48,841 nucleotides of DNA from positions 1 to 48,841 of the IMG/VR virus record IMGVR_UViG_3300037127_000006; one strand, 5' to 3'. A program made the translations under genes and the position numbers. This stretch comes from a virus. Its lineage: Duplodnaviria > Caudoviricetes. Shown one piece after another: positions 12,282-32,450 of the stretch (position 1 is the first letter of the stretch; each line of letters begins with the position of its first letter). The notes under the pieces were generated by a model. That model was given only the letters and a program-made list of their open reading frames with translations. It was not told where the DNA came from and ran no database searches.

Positions 12282-12472
12282 CCAGGAAATGCGCACATCC
12301 CAAGTGTAACCGCGAGCGTCGTGAGGGGAAGAAGACGTGCTCGAACAGACACACGCGGGCACTGGCGGCAATCAACTATCGCAAGAGAAAGAAAGCCGGC
12401 AAGCAGTTGAAGAAATGCCCGTACTGCAACGGCACTGGCTGGACTGACCTCAATCCGAGTCAGCCTGTTTAG
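12278..12472 (+). CDS. Small basic zinc-finger protein
   Basis: CAHPKC...CS..H and CPYCNGTG. Confidence 0.65.
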   Translation: MTRKCAHPKCNRERREGKKTCSNRHTRALAAINYRKRKKAGKQLKKCPYCNGTGWTDLNPSQPV

Positions 12473-14825
12473 AGCGGTAGTCTTCGGATTCCTTGTACCA
12501 GTCTTTCGGTCCCCTGGGCCTGTACCACGTCCCTCTCTTGCCGGTGCCCTTCTGTTCCCACCTCAAGGCCGTCATGCAACGCGACAGTCGCCTGGAATCG
12601 CGTGGTGATACCTTTCCGATATCAAGACCGAGTGCACGTTCAAGCAATTCCATAGCCGTTGCCGAATCCTTTTTCGGTGCTTCCCCCAGTCCGTTTACGT
12701 AATTGTAAAGCGCATCCTCCCAGACGTCCACTTCACGGCGCTCCTCAGCTTCGGCGCCGGCCACTTCCTCATCGACCATCGCCCACCATCTCTCCCCTCC
12801 CCGGTAGCGGTGATACGCTTCGGCAAACAGTTGTTCCCGGTCGGCGCGAATGGCGTCCAAGTCGATTCCCCGACAATGCAGGTAGTAGAACCGCCTGGAG
12901 CCGGTGACATCGCGGCCGGGCTTGGCGGCGTTGGTCGTGCCGACGAACACGCATGAACGTGGATGCTCCAAGGTGCGGTGCCCGTAGGGAACCCGGTAGA
13001 CATCATTGCGGCACGAGAGTACCTGTTTGATGCGCGTCTGCTCGGCGTTGCGGAACGAGTCGAGTTCCGACAGCTCGATCAGGAATTTCCCCCGCAAGAC
13101 GAGGAAGAAATCCTTGCCGTCTGACATCCTCGCATTACAGTCCACGTACCACGGGCCTCCGATGGCTTCCATGGCGGAAGACTTCTTGATCCCCTGCGGG
13201 CCTTGCAGGATTACCATGGTATCGCACTTGCAACCGGGCTGGAATATTCTGGCGATCATCGAGACCCAGAATGACTGGCTTACCCCGTAAGTGTACTCGC
13301 TGGAACCGCAACCCATGTAGGACTCGAAGAAGTAAGGCACGCGCTCCTTGCCGTCCCACGTCAGGGACTTGACCCACTCCTGCGGTCCGTTTCTCTCGTT
13401 GCGCCGGCAGTAGGCACGAACCACCCTGCGGGCCATGTCCTCGGATACCTTCGGGAGTCCCAATACCATCTGAAACATAATGGCGAGTTCCAAGTCGTCG
13501 TCGTCCGTCCATTCCCGCGGGCTGCCGTCGGTGCCCTTGAGGGTGAAATGAGCCTGATGGAAGGAGTCGTACCAGACCAGCTTCTCGATACCCTTGAGCT
13601 GACTCAGGGCCTTGACGAGATTGGATTCAGAGCAGATCGGCGCCCCGCCGCTGGTACGTGCCAAGCCGAGAATCTTGGCAAGCCTCTTTGCGTCCTCATC
13701 GGCGTAACCATCCTCCTCCGCCCAAGGCTTCAGGGCATCCGGAACCTCCACGGGATACTGATGCTCCTGGATGGCCTCAGAATCGCCCTCACAGACCACT
13801 GGAGTCTCCCGGGAGGGTTCAGGGTCGGATACAGGCGCCGGAAGAGGCTCAGGAGGCACTGGTGGCTCTACGGGAGGCTCGAATAGCTTCGCCCGGGGCC
13901 GTGCCCACGCCAGCAGATCCTCCCATGATCCGGTGAAATCAGCAACATCCCATCCGTCAGGCTGATCGGAGACATCCAGCAGCTTTACCGACGCCACACC
14001 GACGAACATGGCCAGATATCGCTGGATTTCTTGGCCTGCATCCTGGCCAGCCGGCCCCGCATCCGGCCAGATCAGCACATGACGGCCCGCCAGAGGCTCC
14101 CAGTCCGCCTTCTCCCACGCTTTGGCACCATTGGGCCATGTCGTGGTCACGTAGTATGTTCCGGCGAGCTTGTGGGCCGCCTCAGCGCATTTCTCGCCCT
14201 CGACCACGAGAACGGGCTTATCCGGACGGTTTGAAAGGTCGTGCAGATTATAGAGCGGCCTGGGGGTGGCGGGGGAGCGGTTCGTCCACTTCCTACCCTC
14301 TAACGAGTACGAAAATGGCCTGAATGTCTTGTCCCGTTTGCCGTCCTTGTCCGGCTGCTCCAAGTAACGAGCCACGTAAAACCAAGGGGAACCGTCAGCC
14401 GTTCGATACAGCCATGATCCTTGGAATTCCAGCCCACTGTTGAGAGTGAATTGGGGCTCCGGAACCCCCTCCGGCGGCGGTACGATATCCGGCTTCGTTT
14501 CCTTGCGCTCGACGGCACCGGGTTGGCCGTCGGGGAGTTGCAAGCGGAAGCCGTAGCGATCGGCAAGACACTTGGCGGCTTCTCCGTTTTTTATCTGATA
14601 TTTCGCCGCGTACAAGCTTATCAGGTCATGGCCGGCTTGGTTCTCGAATGCAAAATCCGCCCACCGGCCCGTCTTCAGGCACACCGAGAAACTGTCCCCC
14701 TTGCCGCCGTGAATGGTTGCGGCATAATATCTGCCACTACGGACGAAGCCACCCGGGACGTGTTCCTGGAGGAAGTCCCTCGCACGCGAGAGCAGGTGGG
14801 CTGACAGGCCGGTGAAGTCAAGCAT
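12450..14825 (-). CDS. TOPRIM primase fused to VapE/VirE-type P-loop helicase
   Basis: VLVVEGEK TOPRIM motif; ILQGPQGIKKSS Walker A, ELSELD, VFVGTTN, TGSRRF; TAATG coupling at 14825. Confidence 0.9.
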   Translation of the reverse strand: MLDFTGLSAHLLSRARDFLQEHVPGGFVRSGRYYAATIHGGKGDSFSVCLKTGRWADFAFENQAGHDLISLYAAKYQIKNGEAAKCLADRYGFRLQLPDGQPGAVERKETKPDIVPPPEGVPEPQFTLNSGLEFQGSWLYRTADGSPWFYVARYLEQPDKDGKRDKTFRPFSYSLEGRKWTNRSPATPRPLYNLHDLSNRPDKPVLVVEGEKCAEAAHKLAGTYYVTTTWPNGAKAWEKADWEPLAGRHVLIWPDAGPAGQDAGQEIQRYLAMFVGVASVKLLDVSDQPDGWDVADFTGSWEDLLAWARPRAKLFEPPVEPPVPPEPLPAPVSDPEPSRETPVVCEGDSEAIQEHQYPVEVPDALKPWAEEDGYADEDAKRLAKILGLARTSGGAPICSESNLVKALSQLKGIEKLVWYDSFHQAHFTLKGTDGSPREWTDDDDLELAIMFQMVLGLPKVSEDMARRVVRAYCRRNERNGPQEWVKSLTWDGKERVPYFFESYMGCGSSEYTYGVSQSFWVSMIARIFQPGCKCDTMVILQGPQGIKKSSAMEAIGGPWYVDCNARMSDGKDFFLVLRGKFLIELSELDSFRNAEQTRIKQVLSCRNDVYRVPYGHRTLEHPRSCVFVGTTNAAKPGRDVTGSRRFYYLHCRGIDLDAIRADREQLFAEAYHRYRGGERWWAMVDEEVAGAEAEERREVDVWEDALYNYVNGLGEAPKKDSATAMELLERALGLDIGKVSPRDSRRLSRCMTALRWEQKGTGKRGTWYRPRGPKDWYKESEDYRSKQADSD

Positions 14826-15852
14826 TACTCCCCCCGATAAAACCTCTCTCGTAAAGCCAGGAACGCCACAGCCGCCACCACCGGGACCACTCCGTTTCCG
14901 CAAAGTCTGAGCCGGTCCACCCGATGGGCCAGCCCATCAGCCATTCGACAAACAGCGGGTTCAAGTTCCGGCCGGCCGGCAAGGACTCGCTTCCATTCTT
15001 CGATTTCTTGGGGTCCCGGGGGCCACTCTCGGATGCCGGCCGGGCCCGGTGAAACAGGTCGAAATTCTCCGCAGCGCAATCCAGTTGACTCATCCGGCTT
15101 TTCCCGTCTTTTCGGATCACAGCCCCGCCGAGCCCCTTGTAATCCCTTGCTGCCGGCGTCGGCCAATTCTTTGCGCTTTCCTGAAGGTCCGGGCCCCCTG
15201 CCCCGCGTTCTTCCCGTTTGCTGTTCGCCCCGCCTGTGATCGTTTTCGGGGTCGGCCAACTGCCGGCATGGTCCCGTAGTTTGATTTGCGGGCATTTCGC
15301 GTCCCTGTATTTCGGGTCGTTCAGGTTCTTGATCCCACCCTCCCCGTCCGACGCTGCGGGAGTGCGCCAGGCAGAAGAGCCGGGCCCGGCCATGGGGCGC
15401 ACCAACATCGGACGCGGAAATAATTCCCCATTCCGCATCGAACCCCATTTCGTCAATCTCTCCGAGGACTTGCCGGAAACCCAAGGTAAGGTGATGTCTA
15501 ACGTTTTCGATGAAAAGCCATTCCGGTTTGGCTTCTTCGGTGATTCTGCGTACATGCGGCCAGAGGTGCCTGGGGTCGTCTTCTCCTTTTTTGTTCCCTG
15601 CAATGCTGAACGGCTGGCAGGGATATCCGGCAGAGATAAGATCCACCTTTCCACACCACGGGCGGCCATCGAAGGTTGCAAGATCGTCCCAGACAGGCGC
15701 TGAATCCATGGCCTTGTTTTCCATCCTTGCCACGAGAGTGGATGCAGCGTAACCATCCCACTCGACCATGCAGACACTTCGATAGGATCGCCCGAGAACC
15801 ATTCGGAGCCCGAGTTCCAGTCCCCCAGCCCCGGCACATAAAGCCAAGCCAT
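14818..15852 (-). CDS. Overlapping alternative-frame methyltransferase partner polypeptide (motif IX-like + W.TP repeats)
   Basis: 344-codon open frame over the whole MTase; WRTP/WPTP x3; LNPLFVEWLMGWPIGWT. Confidence 0.7.
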   Translation of the reverse strand: MAWLYVPGLGDWNSGSEWFSGDPIEVSAWSSGMVTLHPLSWQGWKTRPWIQRLSGTILQPSMAARGVERWILSLPDIPASRSALQGTKKEKTTPGTSGRMYAESPKKPNRNGFSSKTLDITLPWVSGKSSERLTKWGSMRNGELFPRPMLVRPMAGPGSSAWRTPAASDGEGGIKNLNDPKYRDAKCPQIKLRDHAGSWPTPKTITGGANSKREERGAGGPDLQESAKNWPTPAARDYKGLGGAVIRKDGKSRMSQLDCAAENFDLFHRARPASESGPRDPKKSKNGSESLPAGRNLNPLFVEWLMGWPIGWTGSDFAETEWSRWWRLWRSWLYERGFIGGSNA

Positions 15853-15856
15853 TCAT
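14825..15856 (-). CDS. DNA (cytosine-5) methyltransferase, catalytic frame
   Basis: Motif I LCAGAGG, IV GYPCQPFS, VI ENV, VIII R.R, X GNGVVP. Confidence 0.92.
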   Translation of the reverse strand: MNGLALCAGAGGLELGLRMVLGRSYRSVCMVEWDGYAASTLVARMENKAMDSAPVWDDLATFDGRPWCGKVDLISAGYPCQPFSIAGNKKGEDDPRHLWPHVRRITEEAKPEWLFIENVRHHLTLGFRQVLGEIDEMGFDAEWGIISASDVGAPHGRARLFCLAHSRSVGRGGWDQEPERPEIQGREMPANQTTGPCRQLADPENDHRRGEQQTGRTRGRGPGPSGKRKELADAGSKGLQGARRGCDPKRREKPDESTGLRCGEFRPVSPGPAGIREWPPGPQEIEEWKRVLAGRPELEPAVCRMADGLAHRVDRLRLCGNGVVPVVAAVAFLALRERFYRGE

Positions 15857-18254: not shown

Positions 18255-19502
18255 TTAAATCGGCCCTCCCGGCTGCGGTCCCGCAGGAGCCTCGTTCATT
18301 GCCGGAGTCGTTTCAATCGGCATCATCAGCTCCACGTAATCCAGCTGGAGTTGCGGCTTGCCCTGGTACTGCCCTTCATGCCAGAGCACCCTGATCGCCA
18401 CGGTGTTCTCCTTGGCGTAGATGCAGTTGAGGCCGACCAGATCATCGAACGTGGTGAATACGGCTTCCTTCTGGCCCTTGACTTTGATGGAACGGCCAAC
18501 CCACGGCCCGTTCTGGTTGGTTCCGCGGGAGAATTCCTTCACGTCCAGCACCATGACCTCGTTGGAGAGTTTAGACTTGTCGGCCCCCTGCGGGAGATGG
18601 CACAGCGGCGGCCGCGGAGGCATGCCTTCGGGAGCGGCAGGGGTTGCGGGAGGAGCGGTGTGTTCAGGAGCTACCGGTGCCTTCGCTCCGGACGGGATGG
18701 AATCCGGAACATCGGAAGCCATCGGAACATCCTTCGCGGGTTCCGTAAACGTATTGAGAGCCTCATCCACCGCGCCGTGCATCCTGGACTTCGGCGGTTC
18801 CGCAGAAGGAGCGTCGGCCGCCGGGACCGTTGCCGGCGCCTTGTCCGGATCAATGTCCTCATCATCCATTCGCACGAAGTTGTTCATGTCCGAGGACATC
18901 GGAGCGACCTTCGAGATATCACGCACCACCGTCTTGATGCACATTTCCCTGTACCACTTCGCCCAGATCCCGTTGGCCTGCTGGGAGCATCCACGCCGCT
19001 TCTCGATCTGCTCACGCGAGAGGATACTCACATACGGAAACCCATCCTTCGTTGTCAGGGTGCAGTACGCATGGGTGATCTGGTTGTCATCCTTCTTCGT
19101 CGTCAGGCTCGGGATGTGCTTCAGATGCGGTCCCTTCTCGTCAACCCAGTGGGAGAACTCATCCCCGTTGTAGACCACGTTGGCGTGAACGAGGCCGATC
19201 TCCCCGGAGTTGCGGATCTTCTTGAGGAGTCCCGCCGCCATCACGGTGTACTTCGCCACGTTGCCGTACATGTTGATAACCGCGTCATCGCCATCCGGAA
19301 TCAGGCCGTCCTGCGCGGCTTTGCGAATCTCCCCCAAGAGCTGAGACAGATCGCAGTTGCCGAATCTGGGCTCCTCCTTGATCCTCATGCACGCCGCCTG
19401 CATGAACCGTTGCGGGTCCAGATGCTTCGGCATGTACTGGGCAATCTCATCCGCCTTCGCCATCACCTGCTGGATGAACCAGTCGGAGTTCTGTTGATTC
19501 AT
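18255..19502 (-). CDS. recT: RecT-family single-strand annealing protein with C-terminal extension
   Basis: AAQDGL.PDG, GLLKKIRNSG, VY.GDEF, W...EM..KTV.R; adjacent to yqaJ. Confidence 0.88.
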   Translation of the reverse strand: MNQQNSDWFIQQVMAKADEIAQYMPKHLDPQRFMQAACMRIKEEPRFGNCDLSQLLGEIRKAAQDGLIPDGDDAVINMYGNVAKYTVMAAGLLKKIRNSGEIGLVHANVVYNGDEFSHWVDEKGPHLKHIPSLTTKKDDNQITHAYCTLTTKDGFPYVSILSREQIEKRRGCSQQANGIWAKWYREMCIKTVVRDISKVAPMSSDMNNFVRMDDEDIDPDKAPATVPAADAPSAEPPKSRMHGAVDEALNTFTEPAKDVPMASDVPDSIPSGAKAPVAPEHTAPPATPAAPEGMPPRPPLCHLPQGADKSKLSNEVMVLDVKEFSRGTNQNGPWVGRSIKVKGQKEAVFTTFDDLVGLNCIYAKENTVAIRVLWHEGQYQGKPQLQLDYVELMMPIETTPAMNEAPAGPQPGGPI

Positions 19503-19693
19503 TTTTCCTCCGCGCAGTTTTTGCAGACGGCCAGCGTTGCCCGTCCTTGTTTTCCATGAAGTTTCCCGTACCCAGCGGCGACCTCTCCGGGCTTTAAGTT
19601 GTCCGGAATTTTGTGGAGGCCCTGGGTGTCACACTTACACAAGAAAGTCTCACTGACCCTCTTGCCGCATTTCTGGCATGTTGGTTTCTTCAC
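19499..19693 (-). CDS. Small zinc-finger protein
   Basis: CQKC...CKNC; coupled at both ends. Confidence 0.65.
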   Translation of the reverse strand: MKKPTCQKCGKRVSETFLCKCDTQGLHKIPDNLKPGEVAAGYGKLHGKQGRATLAVCKNCAEEK

Positions 19694-20568
19694 TTCGCCT
19701 TCACCTTCCTCGGGTTCACCCGAAACTGTTTTCCTCGGGAGATAGTAAAGGCATCTCCCTTCACCTTGTTCGCCTCTCCGATCTGGCTGAGGATCTTCGC
19801 CTTCGCCTTTGTCTTTTCCAACTCCGCTGCCTTGACGGCCTTCAAGGCGTCGTTGTATTCCTTCGCCAGAGCCGCGACGTCTTCCGTCATGTCCAGCGTT
19901 TCGTTCTCACGCCAGCTCGAATACCTGGAGCAGATGAAATCGGCGTCCTTGTTCCAGTCGATCGCAGGTTCCTCGTTGGCTTCGATGGTACGCCAGAATT
20001 CCGCGACGACCTTCAGGATCGCCTGGTGGACTTTCTCATCGGCTTCCTGTTCGATCTTGACCCACTTGTTGCCACCGACGAGAGCGACGATGTAGCCCTT
20101 GGGGACGCCGGCAACGAGAAGCTGATGCTGGAGCTGGAACAGAATATGAGGAGGGGGTTCCACGATCCCGTCACGTTCGATCCATTTCTCCCAATACTGA
20201 AAACCATCGACGTTTTTGATCTCCAGCATCGACGCCGCAACGTCCTTGCCATTGTCAATAATGTAGTCGAATGACGAGCCGATCCGGTGCTCCGGAAGAC
20301 GAACGTAGCGGTCGGCCTTGGCGATCTTCCATCCCCATTTCTCAGCCGCGCCGATGGCGATCGAAGGCTCCAGGACACGACCGGAAAAGATCCGTTCGTT
20401 CTCTTCGATCTGGATGATCTGCTTGTTCTTTTTTTCAGCCCATAATTGCAAGGCAGATTTGTAAGGCGACACTCCAAACAGCACCGACACGTCCGTTGAG
20501 GTGATATCTTGGACTCGCATCTGAAGCCAGTCCTCGTGGGATTCGGGTTTGATTGCTAACCTCTGCAT
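19690..20568 (-). CDS. yqaJ: YqaJ-like (lambda-exonuclease family) recombination nuclease
   Basis: WL..R...ITST, SPY...L.LW..K, SSFD, LEIK, QLQHQL; start 20568 after GGAGG (ORF-track extension to 20718 runs through the array). Confidence 0.9.
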   Translation of the reverse strand: MQRLAIKPESHEDWLQMRVQDITSTDVSVLFGVSPYKSALQLWAEKKNKQIIQIEENERIFSGRVLEPSIAIGAAEKWGWKIAKADRYVRLPEHRIGSSFDYIIDNGKDVAASMLEIKNVDGFQYWEKWIERDGIVEPPPHILFQLQHQLLVAGVPKGYIVALVGGNKWVKIEQEADEKVHQAILKVVAEFWRTIEANEEPAIDWNKDADFICSRYSSWRENETLDMTEDVAALAKEYNDALKAVKAAELEKTKAKAKILSQIGEANKVKGDAFTISRGKQFRVNPRKVKAK

Positions 20569-20591
20569 TTTTCCTCCGTAAAAGAATAAAC

Positions 20592-20831
20592 TGCCGGACC
20601 AGACCTCAACCCGACTAACCAAAACAGAACCTAAACTAATCAACCCTAACTGAACAACCCGAACCAAAACTGCCTCACCTGAACTAACCAAACCGCAACA
20701 AGACTGACCTGAGCGCACCTAAACTGCCATAACCTGACATAACCCAAAGTAACTGGACGTTCCGCAACAAAACTGCCCGAACATAACGAACCTCACCGTA
20801 ACTTTCCGGAACGAAAAAGAACGCAACTGCC
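20592..20831 (-). ncRNA. Phased pentamer array: 4 units of GGCA + 9-15 x [GTT/GGT-like triplet + NN], plus terminal GGCA; putative guide RNA array
   Basis: Anchors start at 20831, 20777, 20728, 20674, 20595; unit lengths 54, 49, 54, 79 nt; 32/44 triplets GTT or GGT, 40/44 begin with G. Confidence 0.85.
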
Positions 20832-21323
20832 TTAACTCCTTTTCTTCGCCAATTTCGCAATCGCCATTCTCACGGATGACAATTCCTTGTACTCCTTGTA
20901 CCGGCGAGCCCAATCCTGGGCTTCGTTCATAGCCTTGGAGATCACCTGTTCACGCAGATAGGGACGTTCCTTGACAATCTCCATTGGGGCGTACCCCTTT
21001 TCGTCGTCGCTGTCGATGACGCTGTGGAACGCTTTCTGCTGGATCTGCTTGCCGTCCTTGATGACAGCAATGGTGATGTGGTTGACCATGTGCCGGGCCT
21101 GCCAGAGCCGGAATTTGTGGGCGGCAACGGAATCCTGCCACTCGAAGGCATCATGGAGGGGAGACTTCGGACTCCGTGCCTCTTCGACGATCTCTTCCGG
21201 CGTCGGGAATTTTCCCGACTTGTCGTACAGCGAGTAAAGGGCCTCCCCGTACCGTTGTGCGGCTTCCTCGCTGAACTTGCCGCCGGCCTTGAAGATCCTG
21301 CGTTTCGTTTTTGCCCAACTCAT
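20832..21323 (-). CDS. Partner protein of the RAMP-like gene (helical, possibly nucleic-acid binding)
   Basis: TPEEIVEEAR...SPLHDAFEW.D..AA...R..QAR; ATGA-coupled to 21320..21973; stop abuts the array. Confidence 0.85.
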   Translation of the reverse strand: MSWAKTKRRIFKAGGKFSEEAAQRYGEALYSLYDKSGKFPTPEEIVEEARSPKSPLHDAFEWQDSVAAHKFRLWQARHMVNHITIAVIKDGKQIQQKAFHSVIDSDDEKGYAPMEIVKERPYLREQVISKAMNEAQDWARRYKEYKELSSVRMAIAKLAKKRS

Positions 21324-21973
21324 TTGGTCTTCACCTTAAATGTGCCGTTCGGGCCGGCGGTCCGAGAGCCGGGACGCCACTCGCCGACCCCACAGAAGAA
21401 ACCGGCGTAGTTGAAAAGATTGATGACCTGATCGGCGGAGATGAGGTTCTTGGCGAACCGGACTTGAAGCACGGCACTCCATCCCTCAAACGCGCCACGA
21501 TAGCGAATATCCGCCGTCTTCGACATTCCGCCGATAACGACATGGTCCTCCCGCATAACGAGCTTGTCGTATTTGAGAGGGACCAGATCCCCGATGACAT
21601 ACAGCGCACCGTTGACCAATTTCTTCGTCACGTTCTCGATGACGGTTGAAGTGTTGGCAACAGCCGCCTTGAAACCAGAGGCAGGGAAGCCGAAAGTGTC
21701 GGCCTTGTAAGGCCATGACTCCCAAGCATTGAGTTTCTTTTTCGGAAGTTTCGCCCCGGGGATGACGTGCAACGATCCGACGAATTCATCGAAAGGAACC
21801 TTGGCATCCTTCGCGCTTTTGGCCTTCTTCGTCTGCTTGTCCAGAATCATCTTGATCGCCTTGGAAGAGAACTTGTGGACGATCAGTGGAGTGAGTCCCT
21901 CGACAGTAAACTTGATGACTTCCGTTTCGATAGGCGCGATCTCGACCTGCGTTTTCTTTTTCAGGGCAGGCAT
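21320..21973 (-). CDS. Stand-alone RAMP/Cas7-like RNA-binding protein
   Basis: First strand FTVEGLTPLIVH, FPASGFKAA (cf. RAMP PGSSLKG), C-terminal Gly loop GFFCGVGEWRP....NGTFKV; GGAGG RBS. Confidence 0.75.
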   Translation of the reverse strand: MPALKKKTQVEIAPIETEVIKFTVEGLTPLIVHKFSSKAIKMILDKQTKKAKSAKDAKVPFDEFVGSLHVIPGAKLPKKKLNAWESWPYKADTFGFPASGFKAAVANTSTVIENVTKKLVNGALYVIGDLVPLKYDKLVMREDHVVIGGMSKTADIRYRGAFEGWSAVLQVRFAKNLISADQVINLFNYAGFFCGVGEWRPGSRTAGPNGTFKVKTK

Positions 21974-22106: not shown

Positions 22107-22135
22107 AGACTACACCAAAAACCAACCCCTGTCAA
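22107..22135 (-). promoter_or_regulatory. Sigma70-type promoter of the RAMP/array/recombination operon
   Basis: TTGACA-17 bp-TAGTCT. Confidence 0.65.
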
Positions 22136-22149
22136 ATAAAAAATTTTCC

Positions 22150-22178
22150 TTGCCTCCTCCGGATGTCCGTGCTATAGT
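22150..22178 (+). promoter_or_regulatory. Divergent sigma70-type promoter
   Basis: TTGCCT-17 bp-TATAGT with extended TG. Confidence 0.6.
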
Positions 22179-23974: not shown

Positions 23975-25293
23975 TAACGATACTGCCTCACGGTAATTGC
24001 ACCCTGCGTAAGCGTGATGGGATCAGCACTGGCATCACGTTTCCCGTACAGCTCCACCGTGATGTTCCCGCCACTGATGAGTCCGGCGGCAACAGCGGCA
24101 TCGTAGCCCAAGAGCGTGAATGGAATATCGTTGGAACCGCCGGTCAGATTTATGATGTTATACTCCCGGGAGATGTCCTCGCCGGTTCCACTCGTGACCC
24201 TGATTTTCAGGAACGCCTCCTCATTTACTCCAGCGGCATCGTAGTCCAGCACGCCGCAGGCAGTCACATCCAAAATATCGCCTGCCGTGGCAGCAAGGGT
24301 CACATCCAGCGATCCGATGAGAGCGTAGCTCGTTCCGAGCGCACTGGTCCCGCTGAATCCCTCATGCCCGAGGCCGACCATCGTGTTGACTCCGCTTGCC
24401 ATCTTCGCGGGTGTCACCGCCGCGTCCTGAATCTTCGGCGTCGTCACGGCATCGCTGGCGATCTTGGTGGCCGTCACAGCCGATGCACCGATCTTCTCGT
24501 TCGTCACAGCCCCGACATCTATCTTGGCGGTCCCGACCGCACTGGCGGCAATCTTGGGAGCCGTCACTGCGTCGGCGGCAATCTTGGGAGCCGTTACAGC
24601 ACTCGCTCCGATCTTCGCACCGGAAACCGCCAGATCCTTGATCTTGGAAGACGACACGCCACCGTCGTTGATCTCAACAAAAGGATTGAGCGTCTGTCCC
24701 GTGGCACCGGAAACTCTCAGGCCGCCACCAACCGTCAGTGTCCTGGAAACAAACGTGCTTCCCGTGGAGAAACAGAGGATTCCCGGTGTCGCCGGCAACG
24801 TAGCCACCCCAGCCGACGCCTTGTTCTCCAGTACCGTCGCGGTATCATCCCAGCCGATGAGCAGATTCGCCGCAGGGATCGGCAACCGCAGGGAATAATT
24901 CGCAGGGTCCAAGGTCTCCGCGATTTTTACCGCCCCGTTCACGTCATTGGCAACCTGCTGGATTTCCATGCAAAGCCGGTCGGCCATGTTCTCGTGAGAC
25001 TCCGGATGGAAGTCCCCGATGTTTCTGAACTGCGTGGGCTGTGTCAGCGGCAGCACGCGCCGAATCGTCAGGACATAATCCGTCGTGAGATTCCCCGCCG
25101 TCAGTGTAATCGTCTTCGCCACGGTATCCACCGTGTAATCGGTGTCCTTCACCAGCGTCGTCTCGTTGTCGCTGGTGTCGCGCACGGTAAGCAGAAGCTC
25201 CGTGGCGTTGAATATCCTGAAGCCATAGGAATACGTTGCCGTCGCACCGTTTCCAATGTAGTCTTCCCGGCTGCTCGTGCTGGAAATAGTCAT
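23974..25293 (-). CDS. Tail fibre protein
   Basis: T7-like N-terminal anchor (YIGNGAT.TY.Y.FRIF...DY.V...TIRRV...DRL.M..QQ); 10-aa shaft repeats. Confidence 0.88.
   Translation of the reverse strand: MTISSTSSREDYIGNGATATYSYGFRIFNATELLLTVRDTSDNETTLVKDTDYTVDTVAKTITLTAGNLTTDYVLTIRRVLPLTQPTQFRNIGDFHPESHENMADRLCMEIQQVANDVNGAVKIAETLDPANYSLRLPIPAANLLIGWDDTATVLENKASAGVATLPATPGILCFSTGSTFVSRTLTVGGGLRVSGATGQTLNPFVEINDGGVSSSKIKDLAVSGAKIGASAVTAPKIAADAVTAPKIAASAVGTAKIDVGAVTNEKIGASAVTATKIASDAVTTPKIQDAAVTPAKMASGVNTMVGLGHEGFSGTSALGTSYALIGSLDVTLAATAGDILDVTACGVLDYDAAGVNEEAFLKIRVTSGTGEDISREYNIINLTGGSNDIPFTLLGYDAAVAAGLISGGNITVELYGKRDASADPITLTQGAITVRQYR
24391..24660 (-). repeat. Nine 30-nt coding repeats (AVTxxKIxxx) in the fibre shaft
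   Basis: GVSSSKIKDL through AVTPAKMASG; ATCTT recurs every 30 nt on the + strand. Confidence 0.9.
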
Positions 25294-28200
25294 CGTTTGG
25301 GTCTCCTAAATCCCGGTGGCGGGCCGAAGAGGATCGAAGTGGGAGTCTCCGATGTCCCGTCGAGCAACGCACCTCCGCCTCGAATCATCGACTCGAATTG
25401 CTCAGTCGGTATGTGAAGAAGTATACCAGCCATCCCCATCAAGCCACGCCAGTTGCTTCCGTGAACGGCATCCTCCAAGTCGGCAACGAGCTTGACTCCG
25501 GCGGGGCCGCGGTAGCGGTAGCCCTTCAAAGGACCCACGATCTCGCGCACGAACATCAGGTCGCTGATGGGCGAGAGCGCGGCGTCGGCAATGATCTTAC
25601 CAACCATGTCTTCGTCGTCTCCGCCACGCAGGAACCACATGGCGAATCCTGCCAGCATCTCAGGCAACCAGAAGATCGTGATGAAGTCCGCTGCAAACAG
25701 CCCGGCGTTTTCCATCGAGAATCCGTTGGCGAATCTCTGCCCGAACCGCTTGACGGCAAGATTGGTTCTGGCGATGAAATACGTGCCGAACATGGTGAAC
25801 AGGCTTACAACCCCTTTGATCCTCTGGAGTCTGGTCAGATCCTTGATCGTGCCGCCACCCTGAGTGCGAAGGACCATCTGGTCGGCGATCGCAATTGCTT
25901 CCTTCTCGAACGCTTCCGTTTCTTCAAGGCTCGAAGGCTTGCCGAGCCTTGCCTTCTCGCGCTGATAGGTGGCGGACCAGACGATGTTATCCACCAACTT
26001 CTGCGCGCGAATGATGAGGTACATCGACCAAGCCTCCACGCCACGCAGAATCTTTCCCCTGAATGTCGTGGTATTGCGGATCTCATTGATGTCGCGGTCT
26101 TGGGTAAGTCCGCGGTTCCTCATGGTGAGGCTTTTTTCCGAGATATTGAAGGCGGTCTCCTCGCCCGCCTGGACTCCGCCGCCGATGGACTTGACGCCTT
26201 TGACGATCCATTCCGGGCCGACCTCGGGGATGGCATTGGCGAGCCCGAAGAACTGCATGAAAGCGGTGGTCATCTTGACGCCAAGCACGCTGATGGTCGT
26301 TCCACGTCTTATCGCTCCGGCAAGGGCATCCAACTCGTCATGGTTGGCGTTGTCGGCCGCCGTGACAGCTCCGAGTGTCATGAGGATCTCACGGTAGAAC
26401 TTTTGCCCGTATGCACCGACCATCGCATCGCGGACATCCTTGCGCCTCAGAAGTCTTTGCAGATCCAGCATGACCTCGTAATGCGTCAGGTCGTGGATCA
26501 TGTCTTCGAGAACGGTGTAGAGGACGTTGGTATCCAGCAGGACAGGCCAGCCAAGTTCCTTGATCCTCTCCTTCCTGCGTCCGCTTTTTGTCGCTCCGCG
26601 GAACGTCAGGCCATCACGGACCCTTCTGATGTGTTCCTCCACGTTCTGCTCATGTGTACGCTCGATCATCTCGGGATCGTGAACGATGGGGAAGTACCCG
26701 TCTTCCTTTGCGATCGTTCCGATCGGAGTCTCGATCGGAATGGAACCGACACGCTCCGGCGCGATCCCGTCCACCCTCTCACTCAGGGCCTTGATCTTGG
26801 GCCACATGCGGCCCAACAGTTTCCACACTTCGTCAACGTACCTGATCTCCTCGTCGGTGAGTCTTCCGCTGCGGAAGACCACCTGTTCGAGCTGTTCCTC
26901 CGTTACCGGATACCCCTTCTGCTTGAACCTGGCAAGGATGCCGGCACGGTTGTCGGCGTTGCCCCAGTTCATCGCAATGGAGATAAGATCATCCTTGTTG
27001 AGCGACACCCCGCCAAGTTCCTCGATAACTTCCCGCCTGCTCTTTCGCCACGTCTCAAGGATGCTGTAATCCGGCATGATCTCTCTCAGTTCCAGCATGA
27101 TCGTCCTGCGCATCTCGACCTCGTTGGCCGATGCCTCGATCAGTCTCATCATGACTGTCTTGAACAGCAATCCGCCGTCCTCGAAGCCATCGGCAAGGTT
27201 GATGAGGTTGTCGAGCGTGCGGTTCATGAAGAAGAGTCCGCGAAGGGTGTTGCCGAACTTCTCAAGATTCGTCCGACCGCTGACCGTGCCGACGATGCTC
27301 TCCTGTATCTTGATGAGTTTCTCCCTCTCCGCCTTGATCTCCTCCTTGGGGGCGTTTTCCGCCACCATCTTGTCGATCTTCTCCGCCTGTTTGCGGAGCT
27401 TTCTGTGCTTCTTGGAATTCTCGACGATGGATTTCACGACCCGTTCGGCCAGCTCGTTCATTTCCCGTGCTTTCTTCTCTGAGATCAGCTTGTTCTTGCG
27501 CGAAGCGAGATGAGCGATGTGCTTGAGCGAGTTGATGACCTCGCGGAACTCGTCCAAGGTGATGTCCTGGAAGTTGATCTTCGCAGCCCGGTCGATGACT
27601 TCCTGCGGGACGTTGGGCTGTTCGCCTTTTTCCTTCTGCTCCTTGATCCACTTGTTCAGACTCTCGCGGTTGGCGAGCACCGAAGTCGGAACCTTGACGA
27701 ACTCGTAAAGCTCCAAGATACGGTCGATCTGCTCAAGGAAGTCCTCCCCCGCCCGCCCGATTGCCTGGCGCCGGGGTTTCTTCTTGAGGTCCTTGGCAAG
27801 TTGAATCCCCTTCTCAATCTCCTGTTGCGCTTCGATTGCGGCACGGGCCATCTCGAACCATTCCAGTTGTGCGATTCGGGCCCGGAACGCTCCCTCGTAG
27901 TTTCCGCGCATCATCTCACGAATGGCGATCCTGCCGGCACGCCGGGCACTGCGCTCATAAGCCGCGGCACTGATTCTGCGGATCGGCTTCTTGCCGACAG
28001 CCTCACGCGCTCCTTCGCGGTACTCGGCAGGAGAGCGGACCTTCTCTTCGCTTACCGCACGGGTAAGTTCCTTGAAGGTCTTGAATCGGTTGGAAATAAG
28101 CCACTTGAGTTCCGCCTGCATTCTGAGCGAATTCTTTTCGTTGTAGACGGCTTGTATCGCCTCGTCGTAAATCTCCGCCTCGCTCTTGGTCTCAAACACT

Positions 28201-31200
28201 TCCTGGTCCATGCGCTCGTCCACCGCGCGATCCACGATGCTCTGCACGGAGCCGCGGACCTGAAGATCCCTCGTGACCTGCTTTGCCTGTTGCTTGACCG
28301 CATCGAGTTCCTTCTGGACGTTCTCGCGGTTGCGCACGGTATCCAGGAGGCGCTTCACATCGACCTTGCGCTCCGAGACGGCAAGGGCTTCAGCCTGTCC
28401 GGGAATGTCTTCCTTGATCTTGCGACGCGATTCCAGCCGCTTGTGTTCCGCCGTGATGAGCCAGTCGTAGAACTGCTGTGCGGTGGCACGGTGGTCTTCG
28501 AGAATCTCGCTGGCCCAGTCGTCGGCCAGCCGGCCTTTTTCCTTTTTCTTGTAGCGATCCGGGATCTCTTCCCATTCCTCGACTTCACCTTCAATGGGAG
28601 CCACGCCGGTATCGGCAATAAGTTGCAGGAGTCTTCTGAGTTCCTCCGTTCCCTGCCTCTCGGCACGGGTGAGTTCCCTGTGGATCTCTTCGGCCAGAGT
28701 CCTCTGGTCCCGGGTGAGTTTGCGCTTGACCTGGATCTGCTCTTTCCAGAGAGCCTCGACCTCGGCGGCAAGCCGTCTCTCCTGTTCTTGGAGTTGCTTG
28801 AGGCTTGCCTCAAGCTCCGCCCGCATGGTTGTGGACGGATGCGCGGCAAGCTCCTCCTGCTGGATGTCAAGCAACGCCGTAATCACCTCGTCTCCGCTCT
28901 CGAACTTCTCTTCCTCTGTAATGGCCTCCAAGGAGTTGAGATTCTCCTTGAGTTGATCCGCGTTGATGCCTTCCTTTGCAACCGCCGCTGGCGGAAGCAG
29001 ATCCAGCACCGCCTCGCCGTAGCCATCCTCGATGATGGATTGCCGGGCAAGTTTCTGTGGTCTCTGGCCGTTGCCAAATTCAGGTACGCTCCCGTCCGGC
29101 ATGGTACCGTTGATGAGGATGGAGTAGGCAATGACGTCACGTCTGCGCTCGATTCTCTCGCGTTCCTCCGCTTCAATCTCCCTGCGACGCCTCAGGGCTG
29201 CAGCGGCCTCGCGGCGCCGGATAATCTCCATTCTCTTCTGGAAAAATTCCTCAATCGCAATGGCGTTGGCTTCTTCGATGTCCTCCAGATACTTCGCCGC
29301 CTGTTGCTCGTTCATGCCGACGGCTTTCGGATCTACAAACAACGCTTCAACCGCCTGCGATTGACGGGCCACGGCAATCTGCTGCTCGCTTGCCAGAAGC
29401 CTGTCCATGATGTCCTTGATCTCGGGAGCCAGCGTGATGCCGAGAACCTTTTCTTTGTAAATGCGGACGAGCCAAGAGGCAAAGGTACGGAATGCGTCCC
29501 GCAAAGTACGGCTCGGGGCCTGACCCTGCATGAAGTAGACCTCAGCGGAACGTGCCCATTTTTCGTGCTGCTCATCTCCGATCTCGTCGAAGGACTTGAC
29601 ATCCAAATACTTCAGCACCGCTTCGGCCTGCCTGGCGAACCTGTCCTGCTGGATCGTGCGTTCCTCTTCGGGGATCGCCAGCACGGTTGCGTAGTCGCGG
29701 CCGATCTCGTCCAGCCAAATGTGACCGGTCTCATGCAGAAAGGTTGAACGGTTGGCTTTGCGGAAGAAGCCGATAAAGATGCCCTCTTCAACAAAACGGG
29801 CGCGACCCCGGGCTTCTTGGAGGAACGTCCTCGCTACCTGCTCGACGACGCCCTCCTCCGAAACCACCTCAATCCCGACTCGCTCCTGCCGGAACAGCGC
29901 GAACGGGTCCTGTCCCAAGAGGCGACCGCGTTGACGGTATCGCTCCGCCCAAACAGCCGCGTACAGATCCGCCTGCGCTTCCGTAAGTCCGCGCATCCCT
30001 TCAACCTCGTTGAGCTTCAGAGACATAAGAGCTTCTCGGACTGCGGTACGGATGTTGTTGACCGACCTCTCTTCGGCGGCGGTTGCCTCGCGTGCGACCT
30101 CGCGGGCTCTGCGGATCTTGGCACGCTCCTCAACAGGTACACCTTCAGGGGCGCGTTTACCCACCTCAATGAGTTTGACCTGATTCTCGGCGGCCCTGAG
30201 AGCCGACTCCGTGTCGGCAATTTCCCCGTCAAGGTCCTCGGCGGCTTTCGAGCCATCCTCCACGCCTTCACGTTCCTCCCTCATTCGCGCCAAGGTATCA
30301 TTCGTTGCAGCAATCTGTTCTTCAAGTTCCTGCTGAGAAAGCATTTCCTCCTCAACAATCCCGGCTTCCTCCATCCTTTGCTGGACCCATGTGCCAAGCT
30401 CGTCGGAGAGATCCTGGTGGTACTCTTTTATGCTCATCTCCGATTGGTTGACCTTGGAGCCGATAAGAGCGTTGGTCAACTCGGTACTGGGAGAAATTTC
30501 CTTGATAAAGACTTCCGTTGCCATTGGAAGTTGTCCGGACCCCTGATCCCCGGTCTCCTCCTCGTAGACTGCGACATCTCCCGTCATGCGGACCCACTCA
30601 GCCTGCGGGTCCCTGCCCTGCTCCTCCCAGTATTCGATCCAGTCCTCGGCAGGAATGTAGAATTCCTTCTGTCCGGTGGCCTCGGCGACCTCTCTTATGA
30701 GCCGTTCAACCGCCTCCGGTGCCTCCTTGCTCAAATCAGAATCCCTCATCACCAGATGAAGCGCACGAATGAGTCCTTCGCTCTGGCCTGGAGGCACAAC
30801 CAGTTTGTCCGTACTGAAGGTGCTTGCAATCGCTCCGGGCACATGCGGAATGGCAAAGGCGATAAGTTCCGCCAAAATCTGCTCACCCTCGGGAATGATC
30901 CTTTCACCCTGAAGAAACGCAGCCAGCCTTTCTTCCGAGAACTCACCCAGAACACCGTTGATTCCGCCGCGCTCCAAGGCGGCACGGAAGCCGGCACCAG
31001 CCTCGGGATTCTTCTTGATGAATTTCCTGAATGCCTTCTGCCCCTGTCCTGGGAACCGCTCAAGCATTTCCCGGTAAGCCCTGCCGAGTTTGCCGGGACG
31101 AACGCGCAAATAAGCCTTGAAAAGCGTCTGATTGAGATGACTGTCCATCGCCTTCATGAAAGCAGCCGAACCGAATCTCTCGGACGCCAGCTCGGTCCAC

Positions 31201-32450
31201 GCATGGTAGTAGGCCGCAGGAAGGGCGATCAGGAACGGTTCCGCCTGTTCCGGGTGGATCGACACGGCCCATCTGCCGTCGGCAATCTCGATCCCGATCC
31301 CCGGTGTCATGCGCTCGATCGTGCCTTTGGCGACCCGGCCGGGAGAAGCGGCGGCGGTCTGAACGAAGCTGCCGAGCACGAACCCGGTGGCTTTCATGGC
31401 GGCACGTCTGAGGAACGACTGGGCTGCGGCTTTGGCCCCTCCCACGGCAAGGCCCCTGACTCCGGAGAACACCCCGCCAGTTGCCGCAAACTCGCCGACA
31501 AACGCCGGCATCTCAGATACGATCGTGGCGACATTCCCCAGAACGTTGTGTCCACGTTCCTCGGCCGCAATCGCAAGGCGCATGAAGCGGACAAGTTTGA
31601 ATCTCTGTGCGTCGCTGGCCGTGCCAGCCTCGACCGCCTTGGCCGCGTCGTAGATTTCCTTCACCTTCGCGGCGTCAACAACGGCTCCGATGAACGGGGC
31701 AAGGAACGCAGGGTTCTCCCTGAAACGTTTCTTGACGGTTTCATAGGCACCAGTAGCTCCCTCACCTTGGATATAGGCTTCCTCGGCCTTGAGTTCCTCA
31801 AGGAAGTCCTCCATGGTCTTCCTTCTCGCAAGGACGTCCGCCGCAGGGCCGAGACCAAGCATTTGCCAAAAGCCCTTCTTGGCCGCCCTCTCTGCCATCT
31901 CCCCGATTCCCTGCTCCCTTGAAAGGGCTTCGGCCATCGTCGTGAGATACTCATCCGAGAGTTGCCACATGAGGGGATCTTTTTTTAGAAGCCTGAGTCT
32001 GTGCTCGACCGACCCCATGCGTTGCTTGTCCTCATCCGACATGCCCTTGACGTACATCGGATGCTCGACGAAGAACTTGCTTACGGTGGGGGATTTTTCA
32101 ACCCAAGCGCGGTAATCCCAGTCCGGTGCCATGACCTCCTTTTCAAGTGCCTCAAAGTTGTTATTGACGAAATCATGCGGAAGACCCGTTCGGCCCATCA
32201 CGTCGAAGAGGCGCCTCAGAGCCTTCGGGTCAAGCTGTGCGCCCTCGTCAAGCGCAAAGTTGAGAGACCTCGCCCGCTGATCCATAACGATGTCGTAAGG
32301 CGTGACGTGCCTGACGGGGACATTCTCATCAACCTTGGGTTCCCTCACAGCCCTGAAGAACTCATCCTGCTTCTTGAGGCTCGGCGCAAAGGTTCTCTTC
32401 GGCTTTTTCTCCTCTTCCTCTCTCTTTTTCCCTGGTACGCGAAGGCCCAT
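25290..32450 (-). CDS. Giant internal virion / DNA-ejection polyvalent protein (2386 aa)
   Basis: Position equivalent to T7 gp16; STFLHETGH...QHEKWAR..E.Y zincin-like motif; helical and coiled-coil. Confidence 0.8.
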   Translation of the reverse strand: MGLRVPGKKREEEEKKPKRTFAPSLKKQDEFFRAVREPKVDENVPVRHVTPYDIVMDQRARSLNFALDEGAQLDPKALRRLFDVMGRTGLPHDFVNNNFEALEKEVMAPDWDYRAWVEKSPTVSKFFVEHPMYVKGMSDEDKQRMGSVEHRLRLLKKDPLMWQLSDEYLTTMAEALSREQGIGEMAERAAKKGFWQMLGLGPAADVLARRKTMEDFLEELKAEEAYIQGEGATGAYETVKKRFRENPAFLAPFIGAVVDAAKVKEIYDAAKAVEAGTASDAQRFKLVRFMRLAIAAEERGHNVLGNVATIVSEMPAFVGEFAATGGVFSGVRGLAVGGAKAAAQSFLRRAAMKATGFVLGSFVQTAAASPGRVAKGTIERMTPGIGIEIADGRWAVSIHPEQAEPFLIALPAAYYHAWTELASERFGSAAFMKAMDSHLNQTLFKAYLRVRPGKLGRAYREMLERFPGQGQKAFRKFIKKNPEAGAGFRAALERGGINGVLGEFSEERLAAFLQGERIIPEGEQILAELIAFAIPHVPGAIASTFSTDKLVVPPGQSEGLIRALHLVMRDSDLSKEAPEAVERLIREVAEATGQKEFYIPAEDWIEYWEEQGRDPQAEWVRMTGDVAVYEEETGDQGSGQLPMATEVFIKEISPSTELTNALIGSKVNQSEMSIKEYHQDLSDELGTWVQQRMEEAGIVEEEMLSQQELEEQIAATNDTLARMREEREGVEDGSKAAEDLDGEIADTESALRAAENQVKLIEVGKRAPEGVPVEERAKIRRAREVAREATAAEERSVNNIRTAVREALMSLKLNEVEGMRGLTEAQADLYAAVWAERYRQRGRLLGQDPFALFRQERVGIEVVSEEGVVEQVARTFLQEARGRARFVEEGIFIGFFRKANRSTFLHETGHIWLDEIGRDYATVLAIPEEERTIQQDRFARQAEAVLKYLDVKSFDEIGDEQHEKWARSAEVYFMQGQAPSRTLRDAFRTFASWLVRIYKEKVLGITLAPEIKDIMDRLLASEQQIAVARQSQAVEALFVDPKAVGMNEQQAAKYLEDIEEANAIAIEEFFQKRMEIIRRREAAAALRRRREIEAEERERIERRRDVIAYSILINGTMPDGSVPEFGNGQRPQKLARQSIIEDGYGEAVLDLLPPAAVAKEGINADQLKENLNSLEAITEEEKFESGDEVITALLDIQQEELAAHPSTTMRAELEASLKQLQEQERRLAAEVEALWKEQIQVKRKLTRDQRTLAEEIHRELTRAERQGTEELRRLLQLIADTGVAPIEGEVEEWEEIPDRYKKKEKGRLADDWASEILEDHRATAQQFYDWLITAEHKRLESRRKIKEDIPGQAEALAVSERKVDVKRLLDTVRNRENVQKELDAVKQQAKQVTRDLQVRGSVQSIVDRAVDERMDQEVFETKSEAEIYDEAIQAVYNEKNSLRMQAELKWLISNRFKTFKELTRAVSEEKVRSPAEYREGAREAVGKKPIRRISAAAYERSARRAGRIAIREMMRGNYEGAFRARIAQLEWFEMARAAIEAQQEIEKGIQLAKDLKKKPRRQAIGRAGEDFLEQIDRILELYEFVKVPTSVLANRESLNKWIKEQKEKGEQPNVPQEVIDRAAKINFQDITLDEFREVINSLKHIAHLASRKNKLISEKKAREMNELAERVVKSIVENSKKHRKLRKQAEKIDKMVAENAPKEEIKAEREKLIKIQESIVGTVSGRTNLEKFGNTLRGLFFMNRTLDNLINLADGFEDGGLLFKTVMMRLIEASANEVEMRRTIMLELREIMPDYSILETWRKSRREVIEELGGVSLNKDDLISIAMNWGNADNRAGILARFKQKGYPVTEEQLEQVVFRSGRLTDEEIRYVDEVWKLLGRMWPKIKALSERVDGIAPERVGSIPIETPIGTIAKEDGYFPIVHDPEMIERTHEQNVEEHIRRVRDGLTFRGATKSGRRKERIKELGWPVLLDTNVLYTVLEDMIHDLTHYEVMLDLQRLLRRKDVRDAMVGAYGQKFYREILMTLGAVTAADNANHDELDALAGAIRRGTTISVLGVKMTTAFMQFFGLANAIPEVGPEWIVKGVKSIGGGVQAGEETAFNISEKSLTMRNRGLTQDRDINEIRNTTTFRGKILRGVEAWSMYLIIRAQKLVDNIVWSATYQREKARLGKPSSLEETEAFEKEAIAIADQMVLRTQGGGTIKDLTRLQRIKGVVSLFTMFGTYFIARTNLAVKRFGQRFANGFSMENAGLFAADFITIFWLPEMLAGFAMWFLRGGDDEDMVGKIIADAALSPISDLMFVREIVGPLKGYRYRGPAGVKLVADLEDAVHGSNWRGLMGMAGILLHIPTEQFESMIRGGGALLDGTSETPTSILFGPPPGFRRPKR

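What the first reader, a model, noticed from the sequence alone, without database searches (positions are those of the whole stretch)
21320..21973. Minimal RAMP-like protein with no CRISPR context
Three RAMP hallmarks appear in order: first strand plus TPL (FTVEGLTPLIVH), FPASGFKAA helix start, and a terminal glycine loop (AGFFCGVGEWRPGSRTAGPNGTFKV). A compact viral RAMP is relevant to the origin of Cas7-type backbones. It could alternatively act as an anti-CRISPR decoy subunit.
Basis: partly seen in the sequence, partly recalled or inferred. Interest (0 to 1): 0.8.

Follow-up and report, generated by a model that had tools for sequence, protein, structure and literature searches.

The report
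Phage VIPR system aimed at exonucleases

Summary
The ORF and its three RAMP motifs are real. A family profile hits the solved SUSP1 Vipr (PDB 36pp, E 8e-12). The RNA-binding residues reported for it are kept, and the model matches Csm3/Cmr RAMPs. I found no CRISPR, but the gene is not an orphan. It heads vipr, a 163-aa accessory gene and a 241-nt array of four GGCA-joined units of 10, 9, 10 and 15 G-K-Y/NN pentamers. Among 80 viral relatives, 78 have such tracts and 76 the accessory gene. This is a VIPR system with a staggered array, a published layout. Under the published one-base-skip code, guide 4 spells the YqaJ exonuclease motif and guide 3 a DUF3799 (RecE-like) motif. No perfect target was found, and guides 1 and 2 stay unexplained. 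The phage's own yqaJ matches guide 4 at only 20 of 30 bases. The scaffold is unusually U-rich (28 of 44 repeats). The anti-CRISPR decoy idea is unsupported. The scan had already noted this array and similar ones in other genomes. Verdict: new member of a known kind.

The parts
22107..22135 (-). Candidate sigma-70-type promoter of the vipr operon (TTGACA, 17 nt, TAGTCT); divergent from a plus-strand candidate at 22150-22178
   Evidence: Read by eye; -10 matches only 3 of 6, so the scan did not list it. The plus-strand site is (1 found, 0.8 expected). Unverified.
21320..21973 (-). vipr gene, 217 aa single-RRM RAMP with thumb and glycine loop
   Evidence: PDB 36pp_D, E 8.2e-12; hhalign 97.5%; PHROG 4652, same as SUSP1 Vipr
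20832..21323 (-). Accessory gene (vap), 163 aa, start overlapping the vipr stop (ATGA); function unknown, possibly DNA-binding
   Evidence: Homolog in 76 of 80 related viral loci; PHROG 15946; no similarity to the gene after vipr in SUSP1; model pLDDT 93.3, no clear solved match
20778..20831 (-). vrRNA unit 1: GGCA + 10 pentamers; target not found
20729..20777 (-). vrRNA unit 2: GGCA + 9 pentamers; target not found
20675..20728 (-). vrRNA unit 3: GGCA + 10 pentamers; decodes to the YAHQ(L/F)AFY(Q/H)E motif of DUF3799 (PF12684) PD-(D/E)xK exonucleases
20596..20674 (-). vrRNA unit 4: GGCA + 15 pentamers; read antisense it decodes to the GxSPYKSxxQLWxEK motif of YqaJ exonucleases
20591..20595 (-). 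Closing GGCAG junction of the array, 23 nt before the yqaJ start codon at 20568
20431..20475 (-). Partial self-match of guide 4 inside the phage's own yqaJ: 9 of 15 dinucleotides, 20 of 30 bases, 12 of 15 codons amino-acid compatible
   Evidence: order permutations: 1 of 300 reach 9; 0 of 100 reach 12
19690..20568 (-). yqaJ exonuclease gene (PF09588), directly downstream; context, not part of VIPR
   Evidence: E 4.8e-20
18255..19502 (-). recT annealase gene (PF03837), the usual partner of YqaJ; context
   Evidence: E 1.1e-27

Best explanation
The gene encodes a Vipr protein that sits in a phage operon with an accessory gene and a four-unit repeat array, and it likely polymerises on the array's guide RNAs to bind and silence DNA of competing viruses, with two guides predicted to aim at recombination exonuclease genes. 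SHOWN HERE: homology to SUSP1 Vipr, RAMP fold of the model, operon layout, array grammar, and co-occurrence of all three parts in relatives. TAKEN FROM THE SUSP1 WORK, untested here: one protomer binds each pentamer and hides its three scaffold bases; the NN pairs read double-stranded DNA two bases at a time, skipping the third (usually the wobble base); the outcome is transcriptional repression, not cutting. INFERRED: the one-base register slip at each GGCA ends one filament and starts the next, so the transcript gives four guides. Guide 4 would repress yqaJ-type and guide 3 DUF3799-type exonuclease genes of co-infecting phages or prophages, blocking their recombination-dependent replication. 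The phage's own yqaJ would escape through six mismatched codons, three of them synonymous. Confidence by step: Vipr/VIPR membership about 0.96; works by the skip code and repression about 0.85; guide 4 aims at a yqaJ gene about 0.85; guide 3 aims at a DUF3799 gene about 0.7.
For: Profile hit to PDB 36pp_D 'SUSP1 Vipr protein', E 8.2e-12; the next hit has E 0.88. hhalign 97.5%, with SUSP1 H17, R138, C173, D177, W178, R179 (scaffold contacts) aligning to H33, R159, C194, E198, W199, R200. Array positions 1-3 are conserved (G 40 of 44; T/G 43 of 44; T/C 41 of 44) and positions 4-5 are near-uniform. 78 of 80 relatives have tracts, all listed ones on the vipr strand, against 2 of 82 shuffles. Guide 3: 7 of 8 IMG/VR matches to 9 of its 10 dinucleotides fall in frame in one gene family, two of them confirmed as DUF3799 by Pfam; 4 of 5 matches in 401 genomes of the phylum of a Phycisphaerales MAG fall at the same motif. 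Guide 4: all 9 metagenome matches to a 9-dinucleotide subset lie in frame in the yqaJ motif and reach 11 of 15. Its best site in the own genome is yqaJ, in codon register. The skip code also works across the clade: 6 of 222 relatives' guides match at 80% or more against 0.5 expected, 3 of them in other phages' vipr genes.
Against: No perfect target for any guide. The strict 12-dinucleotide guide-4 pattern gave 0 metagenome hits, the 9-dinucleotide core 0 in IMG/VR, and 0 of 401 genomes matched at up to 3 mismatches. Of 6 IMG/VR hits to a looser core only 1 was yqaJ. The guide-4 subset pattern was chosen on conserved YqaJ positions, so it favours that family. Guide 3: none of the 8 IMG/VR hits matches the tenth dinucleotide and they form about two clusters. 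Only 1 of 13 GTDB hits was in the family, and the phylum search gave 5 matches against 3 for the reversed control. Guides 1 and 2 gave only scattered matches. 28 of 44 repeats have U where SUSP1 needs G2; GGY>GAY was among the scaffold changes that abolished silencing there, and GUY is not among those listed. No expression data.
Confidence: 0.85

Rival explanations
1. The system is VIPR, but guide 4 weakly autoregulates the phage's own yqaJ-recT operon, which starts 23 nt behind the array.
For: The best site in the genome is the adjacent gene, in codon register, above permutations (1 of 300).
Against: 20 of 30 bases (67%) is under the 80% cut-off used for natural targets, and no self-target passed it for the P. 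fulva clade or types III and V. Other phages' yqaJ genes match better (23-24 of 30). Both Leu mismatches use TTR codons, 91 of 555 Leu codons in 12 genes, which looks more like avoidance.
Confidence: 0.07
2. A decaying VIPR locus: the U-rich scaffold is drift and the guides are out of date, so the system no longer silences anything.
For: U at position 2 in 64% of repeats against a median of 14% in 75 loci; no perfect target; the protein departs from the relatives' consensus at many positions, including thumb H144 and V146.
Against: Both ORFs are intact, contact residues are kept, all four units keep exact register, and all five junctions are GGCAGTT. GTT/GTC are 472 of 3188 inner repeats in the clade and one relative (L028) is 82-88% U. 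Functional targets would live in the same unsampled community.
Confidence: 0.06
3. Anti-CRISPR decoy: a Cas7 mimic that poisons host type I/III complexes.
For: The fold resembles Csm3/Cmr subunits.
Against: Only 8-16% identity to those subunits; strict linkage to its own array and accessory gene; homolog of a characterised RNA-guided repressor.
Confidence: 0.02

Closest known systems
VIPR systems with staggered vrRNA arrays (10.64898/2026.04.26.720920; Results and fig. S18 legend)
   Same: Phage-borne vipr + vap + array; 9-15 pentamers per unit (published 9-16); back-to-back units with a one-base overlap; no CRISPR array found.
   Different: Scaffold is mostly GUU (20 of 44) rather than GGY (12 of 44 inside units). 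I could not see fig. 5A, S17 or S18, so the type number (I-VII) and the vap number are not assigned.
SUSP1 type II VIPR (PDB 36pp; 10.64898/2026.04.26.720927; 10.64898/2026.10.15.759431)
   Same: Homologous Vipr (24% identity over 165 columns, PHROG 4652); scaffold-reading residues kept.
   Different: No room for a structured 3' tail between units; accessory gene unrelated by sequence (PHROG 15946 against 5926); predicted targets are exonuclease genes rather than a satellite recombinase.
Non-canonical VIPR arrays (10.64898/2026.10.21.760802, passages)
   Same: Vipr next to 5-nt repeats whose fixed trimer is not GGY.
   Different: Examples named there are GAC, CAC, WGT and TGH; G-K-T is not named in the 12 passages I saw, and fig. 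S10 was not visible.
Class 1 CRISPR Cas7-group RAMPs (Csm3, Cmr4)
   Same: RRM core, thumb and glycine loop; oligomerisation on a guide RNA.
   Different: No CRISPR repeats or cas genes found; gapped pentamer code instead of a contiguous spacer.

Membership tests
VIPR | Vipr-family protein: single-RRM RAMP with thumb and G-loop | tested here: met
VIPR | Scaffold-contact residues of SUSP1 Vipr (H17, R138, D177, W178, R179) | tested here: met
   H33, R159, E198 (D to E), W199, R200
VIPR | Adjacent tracts of 9-16 pentamers, fixed trimer plus variable NN (GGY or a related consensus) | tested here: met
   Four units of 10, 9, 10, 15; consensus G-K-T/NN
VIPR | Conserved accessory (vap) gene; no CRISPR array | tested here: met
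   76 of 80 relatives
VIPR | NN positions specify targets by the one-base-skip rule, skip on the wobble base | tested here: inconclusive
   Guides 3 and 4 decode to protein motifs in codon register at 77-95% of bases; no perfect target; guides 1 and 2 unresolved
VIPR | vrRNAs are expressed, bound by Vipr, and repress transcription | not testable with these tools
   Needs bench work
VIPR, staggered-array architecture | Successive units overlap by 1 nt, without tail or ribozyme | tested here: met
   Units are 4+5n nt, joined at GGCAG; no Rfam ribozyme; compared with the legend of fig. S18 only
VIPR type II (SUSP1/P. fulva) | Structured 3' tail behind each repeat tract, and vap1 | tested here: not met
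   Units abut directly; no similarity to the SUSP1 accessory gene
CRISPR-Cas class 1 subunit | cas operon and CRISPR array | tested here: not met
   (subset of ORFs scanned)
Anti-CRISPR decoy protein | Inhibits a host CRISPR complex | not testable with these tools
   No positive sign; context points elsewhere

The most novel reading that the evidence does not exclude
A GUY-scaffold VIPR variant, active despite lacking the G2 base that SUSP1 Vipr reads, that covers two alternative families of phage recombination exonucleases (YqaJ and DUF3799/RecE-like) at their conserved motifs. Its own yqaJ would have been recoded at two-family Ser/Leu codons, the synonymous changes that the wobble-skipping code cannot ignore. 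That would be a natural case of self/non-self discrimination, and of escape, in VIPR.
Probability: 0.3. Interest if true: 0.55.

Novelty: new member of a known kind. Interest (0 to 1): 0.32.

Why it matters
The system class, its code and the staggered layout are in 2026 preprints, so this does not open a new field. It adds a complete phage genome with a compact, tail-less four-guide locus. That makes three open points testable: how staggered arrays are split into guides, whether Vipr tolerates U at the second scaffold base, and how a phage avoids silencing its own copy of a gene family it targets.

Tried and rejected
Pfam had no family for Vipr or Vap. Skip lengths 0 and 2 gave no outstanding self site, and skip 3 only the array itself. 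Guide 1: 9 IMG/VR hits, all 8 of 10, in unrelated frames; 6 of 401 genomes matched with no common gene beyond three near-identical sites. Guide 2: 4 hits, 8 of 9, unrelated; my first impression of a helix-turn-helix motif (recalled) was not borne out. Guide 4: empty. Vap fold: no Foldseek match at E<=0.001 and best Z 4.6 over the C-terminal helices only; this shows no new fold, and the three-helix plus hairpin order is only suggestive of a winged helix. The ESM Atlas gave only unnamed, mostly viral clusters. By inspection of 14 of 73 Vipr proteins at five motif blocks, no residue tracked U-rich scaffolds. Host: cluster look-ups gave no organism. One Phycisphaerales MAG carries a 19 of 20 guide-3 site, a weak hint only. 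No RNA holder listed; the single DNA run may be the source and showed no variants. The window encodes no DUF3799-like gene by tblastn. No complex prediction was run.

Full report
Setting. The window is a whole virus record of 48,841 bases with a 127-nt terminal repeat. It encodes a portal, a major capsid protein, a terminase and tail proteins. The gene lies at the head of a minus-strand run: vipr, a 163-aa ORF, a 263-nt gap, yqaJ, a short ORF, recT and a helicase. One run labelled wetland metagenome holds it and may be its source.

Observation. The 217-aa ORF and the three motifs are as described. It has 240 homologs at E<=0.001 among 342 candidates, none of the 120 listed with a Pfam domain. 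I aligned 83 sequences, the query and 82 of the 119 other listed hits (A1). The glycine-loop and thumb residues are invariant. AlphaFold on A1 gave pLDDT 91.7, pTM 0.85. The Foldseek rows shown are CRISPR RAMP complexes (59 matches at E<=0.001). VIA-align ranks Csm3 and Cmr chains first (Z 9.9 and 9.8).

Identity. The A1 profile finds one significant PDB sequence, 36pp_D 'SUSP1 Vipr protein' (E 8.2e-12). Against the SUSP1 gene, hhalign gives 97.5% probability and 24% identity over 165 columns. Both proteins hit PHROG 4652. The structure preprint names H17 and D177 for G1, R138 and W178 for G2, and R179 and C173 for Y3; these align to H33, E198, R159, W199, R200 and C194.

The array. The gap between the 163-aa ORF and yqaJ holds the strongest period-5 signal in the window. 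It parses exactly into four units of GGCA plus 10, 9, 10 and 15 pentamers, closed by a fifth GGCAG. Of 44 pentamers, position 1 is G in 40, position 2 is T in 28 and G in 15, position 3 is T in 37, and positions 4-5 are near-uniform. At each junction one G serves both registers, which fits the '1 nt overlapping' staggered arrays of fig. S18 (legend only). In the 80 best of 324 confirmed IMG/VR relatives, 78 have G-K-Y/NN tracts, against 2 of 82 base shuffles; the two without end within about 520 nt of the gene. A junction-based parse gave 345 units (nested ones included) in 75 loci. The 163-aa ORF has a homolog in 76 of the 80 and none in SUSP1, so it is this clade's vap.

Unusual scaffold. 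U at position 2 makes up 64% here against a median of 14% (58% against 17% by a second count). Only L028 is higher. GTT and GTC are already 472 of 3188 inner repeats in the clade, the discovery paper notes frequent degeneracy and alternative consensuses, and a later preprint lists non-canonical trimers. It is a shift within known variation rather than a new code.

Targets. Under the published one-base skip, guide 4 read antisense gives G-[RS]-S-P-Y-[KN]-[RS]-L-L-[HQ]-L-[WC]-[KN]-[DE]-[KN]. The phage's own YqaJ has GVSPYKSALQLWAEK. The DNA match there is 9 of 15 dinucleotides, reached by 1 of 300 order permutations, and 12 of 15 codons are amino-acid compatible, reached by 0 of 100. The three compatible but unmatched codons are TCT, TTG and TTA. 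TTR is 91 of 555 Leu codons in 12 genes, TTA 5. This is one site and a post hoc observation. In metagenomes, 9 of 9 hits to a subset pattern lie in the yqaJ motif at 11 of 15 (23-24 of 30 bases; one has an in-frame stop), but that pattern favoured conserved positions. Stricter patterns found nothing, and 1 of 6 hits to a looser one was yqaJ. Guide 3 read sense gives Y-A-[HQ]-[HQ]-[FL]-A-[FL]-Y-[HQ]-[DE]. Of 8 IMG/VR matches to its first nine dinucleotides, 7 lie in frame in one exonuclease family (18-19 of 20 bases, about two clusters); the two scanned are DUF3799. In GTDB only 1 of 13 did. In 401 genomes of that MAG's phylum 4 of 5 did, three with the tenth position matched, against 3 hits for the reversed control. 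Guides 1 and 2 gave no coherent target. These are family-level predictions; the actual target genomes were not found. As a clade-level check, 6 of 222 distinct guides matched the 80 loci or the window at 80% or more, against 0.5 for shuffled guides; 3 of the 6 hit other phages' vipr genes, as the preprints also report.

Mechanism. By homology, Vipr likely forms a filament on each unit, hides the scaffold bases, pairs the NN bases with double-stranded DNA and represses transcription; none of this was tested on this protein. That YqaJ-RecT and RecE-RecT type pairs drive phage recombination is established knowledge, recalled rather than looked up. Silencing those genes would handicap a rival, while the phage's own copy sits under the 80% threshold. 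How the tail-less array is split, and what Vap does, remain open. Vap has a confident model but no clear solved match.

Literature seen. 10.64898/2026.04.26.720920: whole held text, parts 1-6, plus a term search in the PMC supplement PDF; figures and data S1-S4 not visible, which leaves the type assignment and published target lists unchecked. 10.64898/2026.04.26.720927: parts 1-2 of 6. 10.64898/2026.10.15.759431: part 1 of 8 and a term search, with 'YqaJ', 'exonuclease' and 'staggered' absent from its main text; supplements closed. 10.64898/2026.10.21.760802: 12 passages. Two library searches were run; I make no wider claim of absence from print.

Earlier notes. The scan had already filed this array as a staggered VIPR array with one guide aimed at the neighbouring recombination gene's relatives, and five similar arrays in other genomes, one predicted to target Sak4. 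I had reached the same reading before looking; they are not independent evidence.

Verdict. A real RAMP, correctly spotted, but a member of a published system. New member of a known kind; interest 0.32.

Noticed in passing
L024:2780 against L001:3130; L080:3639 against L006:1292; L068:1694 against L051:2659: Guides of related phages match other phages' vipr genes in codon register (11 of 12, 8 of 10, 8 of 10 dinucleotides): VIPR-against-VIPR targeting.
   Followed up: partly
L017:4830 and L014:4229 against L009:6228 and 6567: Two guides from different phages match one ORF at 8 of 10; it carries a DPPY motif, recalled as typical of adenine/N4-cytosine methyltransferases. Not scanned.
   Followed up: no
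L037:3640 against L055:4068: A guide matches another phage's vap gene at 9 of 12 dinucleotides in frame, near the chance range.
   Followed up: no
L028:4080-4715: Array that is 82-88% GTT/GTC with junctions other than GGCA (GATA/GATG-like flanks): a cleaner example of a GUY-scaffold VIPR than the window.
   Followed up: partly
L001-L080: The last dinucleotide before a junction is biased (AT 61, AA 46; CC, CT, CA 4 each of 345) compared with inner positions; it may be constrained by processing.
   Followed up: no
window 25290-32450 (-): 2386-aa virion-region protein with only an unnamed PHROG match over its C-terminal part.
   Followed up: no
window 21695-21760 (Vipr residues about 72-93): Vipr carries an insertion absent from most IMG/VR relatives (gap in 81-99% at several columns), modelled with high confidence.
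   Followed up: no
window 14825-15856 (-) and 12450-14903 (-): C5 DNA methyltransferase and VapE-like helicase/primase genes in the replication block.
   Followed up: no
Mycobacterium and Gordonia phage records H1-H32: Cultured actinophages carry this Vipr family at 31-36% identity; convenient hosts for testing the clade. Their arrays were not examined.
   Followed up: no
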